64,000 bases of DNA from Bythopirellula sp. (GTDB lineage: Bacteria > Planctomycetota > Planctomycetia > Pirellulales > Lacipirellulaceae). Each line of letters begins with the position of its first letter. Positions within the stretch are counted from its first letter, which is position 1. The position numbers were made by a program. Positions 24,001 to 27,000 of this stretch are shown here, piece after piece. The stretch is taken from NCBI GenBank assembly GCA_965216565.1, contig OZ244170.1:32001-96000 (forward strand). The letters are read 5' to 3'.

Positions 24001-27000
24001 CTGGGAAGAGATTGAGACCGAGGACGACCAAGGCACTCTGGCACTGTATACGGCGGAAGACGGCCAATGGACGATGGCCCGCCTCACCGATGCCGGTCGA
24101 GAGAAAATGGCTCAGGTGGCAGACGATCATTGCGAGGCCTGGCAGGGCTTAGGAGTGAGTTTGCTTCATCGTTTGATTGGCGACACTCTACTCGACGCCG
24201 CCAATCTGCCCGCTCCCAAATACGTCAGGTCCATCGAAGAAGTCGTCGAAGGTCTCAAATCTGGCGACTCGGTTGGGCGCGATCACACGGGCCAAATGGC
24301 GAGTGGCGGCCGATTCGAGTTGGCTGCCTTGGTCATGCCGGCGACGCTAGAACACATCCGCCAAATCTCCAACGCCGCCGAGCGGATGCCCGCCAAAAGC
24401 ACCTACTTCTATCCCAAGCTCCTCAGCGGCCTGGTCTTTAACCCCCTTGAATAGCACGGGCCGCAAACGCTTCAGCGTTCCGGAAATTCGATTCGACGTG
24501 GGGTGCACTCGGCGACTGAAGTCACCCTCGCCGACCGATACCGTTTCACGTGAAACTCAATGGGTAAACTGCGCCGTCCTGGTGATGTGCATGTTTCACG
24601 TGAAACGGGGTGAGTCTAACGATCGTTTCACGTGGAACGGGGTGTTGTTTGGGTGCTGGCCGATAACATTCTCGGAGCCATTCCCCTGTCCGCAAGTCGC
24701 ATTCTGAAATTCTCTTTATGGGCCGAGTCATCTGCGTAGCCAATCAGAAGGGGGGCGTCGGCAAGACGACCACGGCGCTCAACCTTGCCGCGCTCTTGGC
24801 AATGGCGGGACGACGCACGTTGCTGGTAGATCTCGATCCCCAGTGTAACGCCACCTCGGGATTGGGCCACTCGCCTTCCGACCGACACGCCCTGATCGAC
24901 AACCGCCCGCTGCGGGAATCGTTCGTCGAAACGGCCCAAGCGAATCTGTCGCTGCTCCCCGGCTCGCGTAGTTTTCAGGATGTCGACACGTTGGCCAACT
25001 CTAGCGATTCGCAAGCCGTGATGCTAGCAACCCATCTCTCCGGAAGTTTGGGTTCGTTCGATACGGTGCTGATCGATTGCCCACCTTCCCTAGGTCAGCT
25101 CACTCGCACAGCACTCGCTAGTGCTAGCGAAGTGCTGATGCCAATTCAATGCGAGTATTTCGCTATGGAAGGGCTCACTCAAATGATCGAGGTAATCCGG
25201 CAGGTGATCGACCAGCCGAATAGCCGATTAAAATTTGGTGGCATCCTGCTCACGATGTACGACGCCACGTTGGAACTCACTGCCGAGGTGGATCGGGAAG
25301 TTCGCGATTTCTTCGGAGAGATTGTTTTCGAAAATGTCATCCCACGCGACGTAGCTGTGTCGGAAGCACCGAGTCATGGAAGCTCGGTGGTCGACTACGC
25401 CCCGCGATCCCGCGGAGCCCGCGCGTACGTGGAACTTTGCCAGGAGGTGCTAGAGCGTGTCTAGGGGCAACAATAGTAAAGAGCGACGTTTGGGCCGAGG
25501 TTTAGAAGCATTACTTGGACGATCAAATGACGAGCCTGTCGAGCAGGAAGCCGTCATTGAGATCGAAGAGTCGGAAGCGGAAACGCCTCAGACTTTGTCA
25601 ATTTACGAAGAGGATGCTTCAGCAGTCTCTCGAAGCGATGACGGCCAGCAATGGATCGAGTTGGGCTCGATTGACCGCAATCCCCATCAGCCTCGCAAGC
25701 ACTTCGACGAGTCGGAGATTGCCGACTTATGCGATAGCATTCGCAACCACGGCATACTGCAGCCGATCGTGGTGCGGCCCGCAGGCGATCGGTTTCAGAT
25801 CATTGCCGGTGAACGCCGATTTCGTGCCGCTCAGATGGCGAGCTGGGAAAGCGTGCCGGTGCAGCTCCGCGAGGTAACGGACCGACAGATGGCTGAACTG
25901 GCCATCGTGGAAAATGTCCAACGTAAGGATCTCAATCCTTTGGAAAAGGGGGCATCGTTCCAACGCTATTTGCAAGAGTATGGCTGTACCCAAGAAGAGC
26001 TCGCCACTCGAGTGAATATCGATCGATCAACCGTCGCCAATCTCATCCGATTGTTGGAGCTTCCCGAGGCTGTGAAGCAAATGATTTCCGATGGCAAGAT
26101 TGCTCAAGGGCATGCCCGGGCACTATTGCCACTGGGTGATGAAAAAGAACAATGCGAATTTGCCAAACGAGTCAGTGGCGAGTCTCTCTCCGTCCGGGCA
26201 ACCGAGCAAATGGTCCAGGGCCACATCCATCGAGCAGATGGCGAGCCTTTTTCTGTGATTGATAGCGAGGGCAATTCGCGGCCTGCGAAGACCCGTCCGA
26301 GCGAGCATCTGGCTCAAATGGAGGAGCAGCTTCGCCTCGCTTTGGGGACCAAGGTCGATCTCAAACAGACGGCCAAGGGCAAGGGCCGGATCACGATTCA
26401 CTTCAAGAATCACGCCGAATTCGACCGCTTACGCGCGATCCTCACTGGCGAGGAAGAGTCCTTGAAAGAAGCGACGTAGTAGTGAGGGGCTAGAGGCTGG
26501 GGGCTAGGGACTAGTAAGAATACTATACATAAGTATAGTAACTGACCTTGGCTCCAGCGGTTACCATCTATCGAAAGCTATTAGTTAATAGCATCAAGCG
26601 GGGCGTGGCGCAGCCTAGTAGCGCGGTCGCCGCGGCGACAGGTCGCACGTCCGAATCATGACATTACTGAATAACTAAATAATCCAAAAAATCTCGGGGC
26701 GTGGCGCAGCCTGGTAGCGCGACTGGTTTGGGACCAGTAGGTCGCACGTTCGAATCGTGTCGCCCCGACTTCATGTTCTACGTCTACGTGCTTCGAAGCG
26801 AGAAGACGGGTCGATTCTACACGGGATCATGTGGCGATCTGGATGATCGATTGCACCGCCACAACTGTGGCTACTCGAAAGCCACCAAACACGGGATTCC
26901 TTAGCAGCTCCTCTACTCTGAGGAATTTCAAACTCGTTCTGAGGCCGTTCAGCGTGAAATGTATTTCAAGAGCGGGACTGGTAGAGAAAAGCTGAAGTCT

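What a model noticed while it worked through the whole genome (the two positions that open the first line are those of the whole stretch)
24542..26470. parABS lies a quarter-chromosome from the origin, opposite dif
The three parS sites and parAB (g00044-45) lie 1.40 Mb (27% of the circle) from the GC-skew origin at dnaA-dnaN-gyrB, in mid right replichore, and almost antipodal (47%) to dif in mid left replichore. The segregation axis parS-dif is thus turned about 90 degrees to the replication axis, and the same layout recurs in other Lacipirellulaceae.
Evidence so far: Only clustered parS matches are at 56542-56639; skew minimum 3,864,610, maximum 1,404,127, holding in third codon positions of both strands and intergenic DNA. 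In five single-contig relatives parS is 13-39% from dnaN; parS-dif is 44-47% in three of them (G180, G011, G074) and about 21% in two. Sampled skew of G180 is mostly positive after and negative before dnaN.
(Added by a program. Inside this text positions count along the whole contig: contig position 32,001 is position 1 of the stretch shown here. "Call 12" and the like, gene names such as g00115 and contig names such as C1 are that model's own, and its searches are not shown. The text may have been shortened before it was handed on; [...] marks where a part breaks off. The agent that wrote the report below was given it as the finding of a first reader that could run no searches.)

Follow-up and report, generated by a model that had tools for sequence, protein, structure and literature searches.

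The report
Chromosome with two crossed polarity axes
In this planctomycete and most of its closed-genome relatives, the chromosome's centromere (parS), its final unlinking site (dif) and the DNA signposts pointing to dif form an axis turned about a quarter-circle from the axis of DNA replication, breaking the near-universal bacterial rule that the two axes coincide.

Summary
Confirmed and strengthened. Three parS sites and parAB lie 26.9% of the circle from oriC, dif lies 25.9% on the other side, and parS-dif are 47.3% apart. Two new supports.

First, oriC is now placed by more than skew. A DnaA-trio/AT motif learned from ten relatives finds the dnaA-dnaN gap as its top genome-wide hit, 4 kb from the skew minimum.

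Second, the top 8-mer on the parS-dif axis is the canonical KOPS GGGCAGGG (z 11.4). It converges in a 13-kb interval holding dif, diverges near parS, and ignores oriC. It lies on the lagging strand in two of four quadrants. Inversion or misassembly cannot do that, since both flip skew and KOPS together.

Among 25 single-contig genomes of the class with parS located, parS-dif is at least 43% in 23, dif is opposite dnaN in 1, and parS is at least 10% from dnaN in 24. Several families of other classes are canonical.

Against: origin not mapped by coverage; skew sampled in nine relatives, unclear in three; two genomes not antipodal. Earlier scan notes gave the dif location, not this layout. Not found in ten literature searches.

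The parts
24542..24557 (.). parS site 1 (palindrome)
   Evidence: 2 mismatches to the query; 4 window hits against 0.25 expected by shuffling
24592..24607 (.). parS site 2
   Evidence: 1 mismatch
24624..24639 (.). parS site 3
   Evidence: exact match to the 14-bp degenerate core
24718..25464 (+). parA, 248 aa, deviant Walker A KGGVGKTT
   Evidence: AAA_31 165.5 bits, CbiA 97.4 bits
25457..26479 (+). parB, 340 aa, with ParB_N, HTH_ParB and ParB_C domains; GERRFRAA motif; R and G 28 residues apart, as in parS-binding ParB
   Evidence: TIGR00180 186.4 over cut-off 58.45, Noc model 227.9 under cut-off 315; specificity rule from PMC7383237 passages, spacing read by eye
31728..31735 (+). first KOPS-like GGGCAGGG right of parS, pointing towards dif; one of 297 in the genome. 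The other parts of the system lie outside the window (contig positions): oriC 3,868,119-3,868,452, dif 2,519,702, ftsK 5,174,261, xerD 2,632,881, xerC-like 4,411,424, smc 5,069,558, scpA 4,649,392, scpB 3,864,265 and 4,443,118

Best explanation
The chromosome carries two maintained, roughly perpendicular polarity axes. Replication starts at one DnaA origin in the dnaA-dnaN gap and ends near its antipode (1.26-1.40 Mb); this writes the G/T skew. Segregation is organised from parS to dif, both in mid-replichore. Inferred steps: ParB loads at parS about half-way through replication, ParA moves one copy (into the bud), SMC-ScpAB loaded at parS aligns the arms from parS towards dif, and FtsK at the division neck reads KOPS and pumps DNA towards dif, where XerCD unlinks the sisters. 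dif is kept opposite the centromere, not opposite the origin. Shown: the positions, the two polarities and the presence of all the genes. Inferred: protein binding, timing, cell geometry, and that oriC fires where predicted.
For: KOPS axis: GGGCAGGG ranks first of 32,184 8-mer pairs on the parS-dif contrast (z 11.4); the best 8-mer on the replication and control contrasts reaches 4.6. A free two-breakpoint fit converges between 2,511,857 and 2,524,893, with 255 of 297 concordant, score 213 against a maximum of 73 in 300 permutations. On the leading strand: 22 of 78, 44 of 54, 9 of 77 and 79 of 88 in the four quadrants; polarity is the same for sense, antisense and intergenic copies. Overall 247:50 on the parS-to-dif strand and 154:143 on the leading strand. 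Replication axis: G skew z 33.5, change points at 1.40 and 3.84-3.86 Mb; the oriC motif learned without G000 scores 18.3 at 3,868,385 against 13.7 for the next site and is the only top-20 hit with DnaA boxes upstream; rpoB is 1.6% from it on the leading strand. Relatives: parS-dif at least 43% in 23 of 25, dif opposite dnaN in 1 of 25. Three apparent exceptions became antipodal once parS rather than parB was used. KOPS converge on dif in 11 relatives. In 46 sampled windows where the axes disagree, G+T skew follows dnaN in 32, mean +0.025, s.e. 0.006.
Against: No replication profile was obtained. Sampled skew is unclear in G042, G012 and G018 (G+T t 1.7, 0.6, -0.3), and raw GC skew is weaker in discordant windows (0.009) than concordant ones (0.024). 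In G000 a small G excess follows the parS-dif axis (t 3.7) and masking KOPS does not remove it. KOPS diverge at 4.80-5.125 Mb, nearer the antipode of dif (5.126) than parS (5.268), 0.15-0.2 Mb away. In G443, 11 of 14 motifs between dnaN and 1.11 Mb point the other way. G018 and G295 are not antipodal, and G387 is canonical. In 10 of 18 genomes of family f8, dnaN is not beside a dnaA, so the origin proxy is weaker there. Kin are not independent.
Confidence: 0.8

Rival explanations
1. Replication starts at or near parS (alone or as a second origin) and ends near dif, so the layout is canonical and the GC skew is a relic or has another cause.
For: Fourfold-site skew is -0.032 in the 128 kb left of parS and +0.071 in the 143 kb right of it. 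There is a small G excess on the parS-dif axis. There are two dnaA genes, and the one beside dnaN lacks the N-terminal domain. PMC6199493 (sections 11 and 12) shows that skew can be a poor guide to the terminus.
Against: No unwinding-motif hit at parS or at the long dnaA among the top 20. Forks from parS would make 1.4-1.96 Mb G-rich, but it is strongly C-rich. Skew is positive on both sides of dif, not plus then minus. In PMC6199493 skew mirrors KOPS; here they disagree over half the genome. The box-trio-AT pattern lies upstream of dnaN in all 11 genomes read. The block left of parS also has flipped KOPS (16 to 8), which fits a local inversion.
Confidence: 0.08
2. The geometry is as described but the offset is unselected and transitional: the dnaA-dnaN-gyrB block moved away from parS once, skew re-equilibrated, and parS, dif and KOPS are a decaying leftover.
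For: Families of other classes are canonical (parB within 6% of dnaN in 11 of 18), so an ancestral move is likely. Synteny inertia is visible: valS stays within 9% of parS in all 10 family genomes, and valS is 12-30% from dnaN in 19 of 25. No gene-strand bias (1118 of 2211 long ORFs leading) suggests weak selection on replication geometry.
Against: KOPS polarity is sharp and densest at dif (110 correct per Mb within 100 kb against 34-61 further out) and recurs in three families of the class and one outside it. parS stays opposite dif even where it has left parB (6 of 6 such genomes), while valS-parS ranges from 0.2 to 49%. So the parS-dif axis is maintained; only the reason for the offset from oriC stays open.
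Confidence: 0.1
3. Misassembly or recent large inversions create the pattern.
For: The contig is broken inside a repetitive Cys-rich gene. G018 shows four KOPS switches.
Against: Any cut, move or inversion flips skew and KOPS together, so their relative sign is invariant; yet it differs between megabase blocks (ter-to-dif against dif-to-ori). Each signal gives a clean two-arm pattern, and the layout recurs in 23 of 25 assemblies.
Confidence: 0.02

Closest known systems
Canonical oriC-parABS / ter-dif-KOPS chromosome (P. aeruginosa, V. cholerae, Caulobacter, B. subtilis)
   Same: Same parts: ParA, parS-type ParB, parS, SMC-ScpAB, XerC/XerD, 28-bp dif, FtsK with gamma domain, GGGNAGGG motif, DnaA box and trio origin.
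   Different: [quoted passage not shown] Here parS is 1.40 Mb from oriC, KOPS are 52% on the leading strand, and dif is 1.12 Mb from the skew switch.
B. subtilis SRS motifs switching at the PLR rather than at oriC
   Same: Translocase guide motifs diverge at a segregation locus, not at the origin (PMC3384302 passage).
P. aeruginosa PAO1-UW asymmetric chromosome
   Same: Segregation ends at dif while replication ends elsewhere (PMC6199493 abstract, sections 11 and 12).
   Different: It is a recent inversion: skew still switches at dif and mirrors KOPS, and parS stays at oriC.
Engineered parS displacement (P. aeruginosa competence zone; Caulobacter permissive zones; V. cholerae rotation)
   Same: Moving parS rotates the bulk of V. 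cholerae chromosome I (PMC4091711 abstract).
   Different: Those are laboratory constructs. In P. aeruginosa parS works only from -200 to +450 kb of oriC; in Caulobacter an extra parS is most harmful mid-arm (10.1101/172932 passages). Here mid-arm is the natural and only position.
Hyphomonas neptunium two-step segregation
   Same: A budding bacterium that uncouples segregation from replication (PMC6650430 abstract).
   Different: There ParABS moves the origin regions and the delay is a second step; no turned dif or KOPS axis appears in the abstract.

Membership tests
Chromosomal ParABS | ParA with deviant Walker A; ParB with N-terminal, HTH and dimerisation domains, in one operon | tested here: met
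Chromosomal ParABS | parS palindromes and parS-type (not Noc) specificity residues | tested here: met
   R...G at 28-residue spacing read against PMC7383237; Noc model under cut-off
Chromosomal ParABS | parS close to oriC | tested here: not met
   26.9% away; at least 10% in 24 of 25
Chromosomal ParABS | ParB binds these sites in vivo | not testable with these tools
   needs ChIP-seq
XerCD/dif | single conserved 11-6-11 site with palindromic arms; xerC and xerD genes | tested here: met
   arms invariant in 29 of 30 loci; TIGR02225 363.8 over cut-off 329.6, second gene 328.8
XerCD/dif | located at the replication terminus or skew switch | tested here: not met
   1.12 Mb from the skew maximum; at least 43% from dnaN in 1 of 25
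XerCD/dif | recombination by XerCD | not testable with these tools
   indirect only: tandem 2,873-bp element with two hybrid sites at this locus
KOPS (criteria of PMC3384302) | over-represented, oriented to dif, at least 1 per 40 kb in the dif region | tested here: met
   247 observed against 98 expected (Markov orders 3 and 5); 1 per 11.8 kb; FtsK gamma domain present
KOPS (criteria of PMC3384302) | at least 90% oriented in the 7% dif region | tested here: inconclusive
   31 of 35 (0.886) for GGGCAGGG and 60 of 69 (0.87) for GGGNAGGG, just under the threshold
KOPS (criteria of PMC3384302) | enriched on the leading strand | tested here: not met
   154:143
DnaA-dependent oriC with basal unwinding system | DnaA boxes next to trio repeats, at the skew minimum | tested here: met
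   definition from PMC8287927 passages; the pattern in relatives was partly read by eye
DnaA-dependent oriC with basal unwinding system | initiation shown by copy-number gradient | not testable with these tools
   the read tool lays one stretch of at most 20 kb and cannot compare origin with terminus; not called

The most novel reading that the evidence does not exclude
Most Planctomycetia, and at least one family outside the class, have a selected chromosome architecture in which centromere, SMC loading, KOPS polarity and dif are decoupled from oriC and the terminus. Placing parS 12-30% from oriC works as a genome-encoded timer that delays centromere duplication to 25-60% of the replication period, until a bud can receive it, and folds the chromosome lengthwise from parS to dif with oriC and the terminus mid-arm.
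Probability: 0.4. Interest if true: 0.93.

Novelty: new variant of a known kind. Interest (0 to 1): 0.86.

Why it matters
In almost all bacteria studied, replication polarity and segregation polarity coincide, so their effects cannot be told apart. These genomes separate them naturally: GC skew follows oriC, while KOPS and dif follow parS. That bears directly on whether replication ends at dif, what sets KOPS orientation, and why parS must be near oriC. It gives a testable model of chromosome passage into the bud in bacteria that divide without FtsZ (budding and lack of FtsZ recalled), and a dif and KOPS motif for a phylum where a published search failed (PMC3025954). It also warns that tools which infer ori from parAB, or ter from dif, will misplace them here.

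Tried and rejected
1. A dif search with generic consensus strings found nothing convincing; looser arm patterns listed the site among many. An earlier scan note pointed to the locus, and I then tested it.

2. Codon-corrected skew on 20-kb samples was noisier than raw skew. A 3-mer model trained on G000 transferred poorly (28 of 46 discordant windows; G347 1 of 6). G+T skew was one of three measures tried; all three are reported.

3. parB as proxy for parS misled in 3 genomes.

4. Canonical controls G216 and G214 show no polarity with AGGGCAGGGS (15 and 12 hits), so they give no positive control for KOPS following oriC.

5. rpoB and valS as controls for whether the oriC offset is constrained were inconclusive.

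6. Gene-strand, tRNA (30 of 48 leading) and rpoB orientation (16 of 25 leading) do not discriminate the axes.

7. A second origin at parS or at the long dnaA was not found.

8. Skew was not obtained for G497, G120 or G216, and for only 5 of 15 planned windows of G391; dnaN as origin is untested there by skew.

9. Ten literature searches listed no report of this layout. The library lacks most subscription papers, including the 2007 parS survey (Livny et al.), which I saw only as cited; its tables may list displaced planctomycete parS.

Full report
Scope. Positions are contig positions of G000 (5,211,746 bp, one contig; window = 32,001-96,000) unless marked window. No call named the organism. 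Relatives are cited by handle; f1 is the own family, f2 and f3 the same order, f8 the same class.

Observation. Three parS palindromes lie at window 24542, 24592 and 24624, upstream of parA and parB. They are the only cluster and the only three exact hits in the genome. Cumulative GC skew has its minimum at 3,864,611 and its maximum at 1,404,128. The two arms hold at fourfold third positions corrected for gene strand (quadrant values +0.009, +0.031, -0.064, -0.065) and more noisily in intergenic DNA. A short dnaA, dnaN and a gyrB-like ORF follow at 3,867,072-3,872,597.

Is dif real? A published search failed in its one planctomycete (PMC3025954, passages and one supplement row), so this needed testing. 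An earlier scan note pointed to the locus. The site at 2,519,702 reads ACGTCCGATAA TCATAG TTATGTTCGTT. The core occurs in 115 of 120 family genomes, once in 109; the reversed control hits 7. Both arms are invariant in 29 of 30 loci with variable flanks. A variant pattern hits 37 of 45 further near-complete genomes. xerD passes its cut-off and a second gene scores just under it.

Is the origin where the skew says? The gap between the short dnaA and dnaN holds opposed DnaA boxes, a run of trio repeats and an AT-rich tract, matching the unwinding system of PMC8287927 (passages). A similar arrangement is seen upstream of dnaN in the 10 relatives whose DNA I held (partly by eye). A 30-bp motif learned from those 10 alone ranks 3,868,385 first in G000 (18.3 against 13.7) and is the only top-20 hit with boxes upstream; none lies at parS or at the long dnaA. 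This support is independent of skew, but it is still sequence, not a replication map.

The deciding test. oriC, parS, the skew maximum and dif cut the circle into four near-equal quadrants, which allows separate contrasts for the two axes and a control contrast. G skew loads on the replication axis (z 33.5 against 8.3). Among 32,184 8-mer pairs, the top word on the parS-dif axis is GGGCAGGG (z 11.4; plus/minus counts 22/58, 44/10, 68/9, 9/77); the best word on the other two contrasts reaches 4.6. This is the KOPS recognised by E. coli, V. cholerae and P. aeruginosa FtsK (PMC3384302 passages). Fitted freely, it converges between 2,511,857 and 2,524,893, around dif, and diverges at 4.80-5.125 Mb; 255 of 297 agree, score 213 against at most 73 in 300 permutations; two scrambled words give no signal. 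It is on the leading strand in 22 of 78, 44 of 54, 9 of 77 and 79 of 88 cases, regardless of coding strand, and is densest at dif. It is 2.5-fold over-represented, and 31 of 35 copies in the dif region are correctly oriented, just under the published 90% criterion. FtsK with a gamma domain, smc, scpA and scpB are present. An inversion, translocation or assembly error flips skew and KOPS together, so blocks where they agree and blocks where they disagree cannot be made by rearrangement (inference).

Relatives, positions. I took the 10 single-contig genomes among 120 of the family and those among a phylum sample of 401. parS was searched in 24 handles and 24 (14 of 21 from f8). For the final table I dropped multi-contig genomes (G043, G046, G102, G115, G235, G367, G419) and G225 (no dif hit), used the densest cluster for G006, and used a single exact parS hit in 7 genomes; most sizes are rounded to 0.1 Mb. 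Of 25 class genomes with parS located, G000 included: parS-dif at least 43% in 23; dif at least 43% from dnaN in 1; parS at least 10% from dnaN in 24; parS and dif on opposite sides in 24; medians 20.5, 30.4 and 47.4%. Adding 7 with parB as proxy gives 29, 3, 31 and 30 of 32. Keeping only the 18 with dnaA beside dnaN gives 16, 0, 18 and 17. With parB alone, G271, G387 and G479 looked like exceptions; their parS sites lie elsewhere and are 47-50% from dif. Outside the class, parB is within 6% of dnaN in 11 of 18, but family f11 is displaced in 3 of 3.

Relatives, KOPS. G042: 13 plus, dif, 14 minus, no switch at dnaN; G001: 13 of 15 as predicted. G003: 36 plus, dif, 52 minus, then plus from 5.476 Mb (parS 5.515) with a mixed patch; G012 and G013 converge on dif (G103 and G116 not listed). 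G435 converges on dif; G347 has 32 of 33 minus through dnaN and 42 of 45 plus from 2.37 Mb, listing cut before dif (G497 not listed). G120: 40 of 45 and 28 of 35 as predicted. G295 and G387 converge on dif. Against: G443 converges on dif, but 11 of 14 motifs between dnaN and 1.11 Mb point the other way; G018 has four switches; G216 and G214 show no polarity with this word.

Relatives, skew. Fifteen 20-kb windows per genome were read in nine relatives. G+T skew on the dnaN axis gave t of 4.9 (G003), 3.4 (G347), 3.2 (G443), 2.7 (G435), 2.6 (G001), 2.1 (G103), 1.7 (G042), 0.6 (G012) and -0.3 (G018); on the parS-dif axis |t| never exceeded 1.6. Pooling eight genomes (G018, the five G391 windows and the windows on dnaN left out), the 46 discordant windows follow dnaN in 32 (G+T), 30 (raw GC) and 28 (3-mer model). 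Raw GC is weaker there (0.009) than in the 66 concordant windows (0.024). The support is moderate, not complete.

Mechanism. Shown: positions, two polarities, gene content. Inferred from established function: forks leave oriC and reach parS and dif at about 0.54 and 0.52 of the replication period in G000 (0.25-0.58 for parS in 22 of 25, equal fork speed assumed). ParA then moves a ParB-parS complex, SMC aligns the arms from parS, and FtsK pumps towards dif, the last region through the neck. Moving parS rotates the chromosome in V. cholerae (PMC4091711 abstract), so a lengthwise parS-dif fold with oriC and terminus mid-arm is the expected geometry. The likely history is a move of the origin block away from parS, since outgroups are canonical. 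Whether the offset is a timer for budding (compare PMC6650430 abstract) or merely tolerated is open; the valS and rpoB controls were inconclusive.

Comparison. parS near oriC is the rule, and in P. aeruginosa it works only from -200 to +450 kb (PMC5098823 passages); an extra mid-arm parS is the worst case in Caulobacter (10.1101/172932 passages; PMC7022226 passages, added nothing). In a survey of 2,027 chromosomes the skew switch lies on average 13 kb from dif, also in asymmetric ones (PMC6199493 abstract and sections 11-12). The nearest precedent is the B. subtilis SRS switch at the PLR, far smaller and without displacement of dif. Ten searches listed no such layout, and two look-ups of scan notes were empty. 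Subscription papers and supplements other than those of PMC3025954 were not seen and may mention displaced parS in this phylum.

Verdict. A real, widely shared and apparently undescribed arrangement of known parts: new variant of a known kind, interest 0.86.

Noticed in passing
window 26599-27121: tRNA-Pro(TGG) at 26695-26769 is flanked by two degenerate tRNA-like copies, with a GIY-YIG nuclease gene (26773-27021) broken by an in-frame TAG between the tRNA and the downstream copy.
   Followed up: partly
G000 contig 1,752,925-1,754,403 and 3,867,072-3,868,118: Two dnaA genes: a 492-aa one far from oriC with a weak N-terminal domain hit, and a 348-aa one beside oriC without it. Exactly two DnaA C-terminal matches in 45 of 49 genomes. 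Which one initiates is unknown.
   Followed up: partly
G000 contig 2,513,956-2,519,729: Two identical 2,873-bp copies in tandem at dif, with two hybrid sites that keep one arm and the spacer; already noted by the scan.
   Followed up: partly
G000 contig 2.48-2.92 Mb and 5.14-0.057 Mb: Skew is reversed on both sides of dif while KOPS stay correct, as an inversion centred on dif would give; the block left of parS has both skew and KOPS reversed.
   Followed up: partly
G000 whole contig: The left replichore is about twice as skewed as the right, and the ori-to-parS quadrant is weakest (0.0085, 0.017, -0.025, -0.031). Unexplained.
   Followed up: no
G000 contig 1.397-1.412 Mb: The skew maximum falls among ORFs that look like a mobile island (ParA-like, replication-initiator-like, restriction genes; read by eye), 142 kb past the antipode of oriC.
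   Followed up: no
G000 contig about 1,752,390-1,752,800: Five tandem copies of a repeat of roughly 90 bp downstream of the long dnaA (seen output).
   Followed up: no
G000 contig 3,864,265 and 4,443,118: Two scpB genes, one 4 kb from oriC; scpA and smc lie elsewhere.
   Followed up: no
G006: 24 exact parS sites spread over the chromosome, densest at 4.82 Mb.
   Followed up: no
G018: Four KOPS switches, one at dif and one at parS; probably a block swap or misassembly.
   Followed up: partly
G145, G271, G387, G403, G479, G497: parS is detached from parB by 0.3 Mb or more, yet stays opposite dif.
   Followed up: yes
G479 C1 5.230-5.234 Mb: rpoB appears in four pieces over two frames, suggesting indel errors in that assembly.
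   Followed up: no
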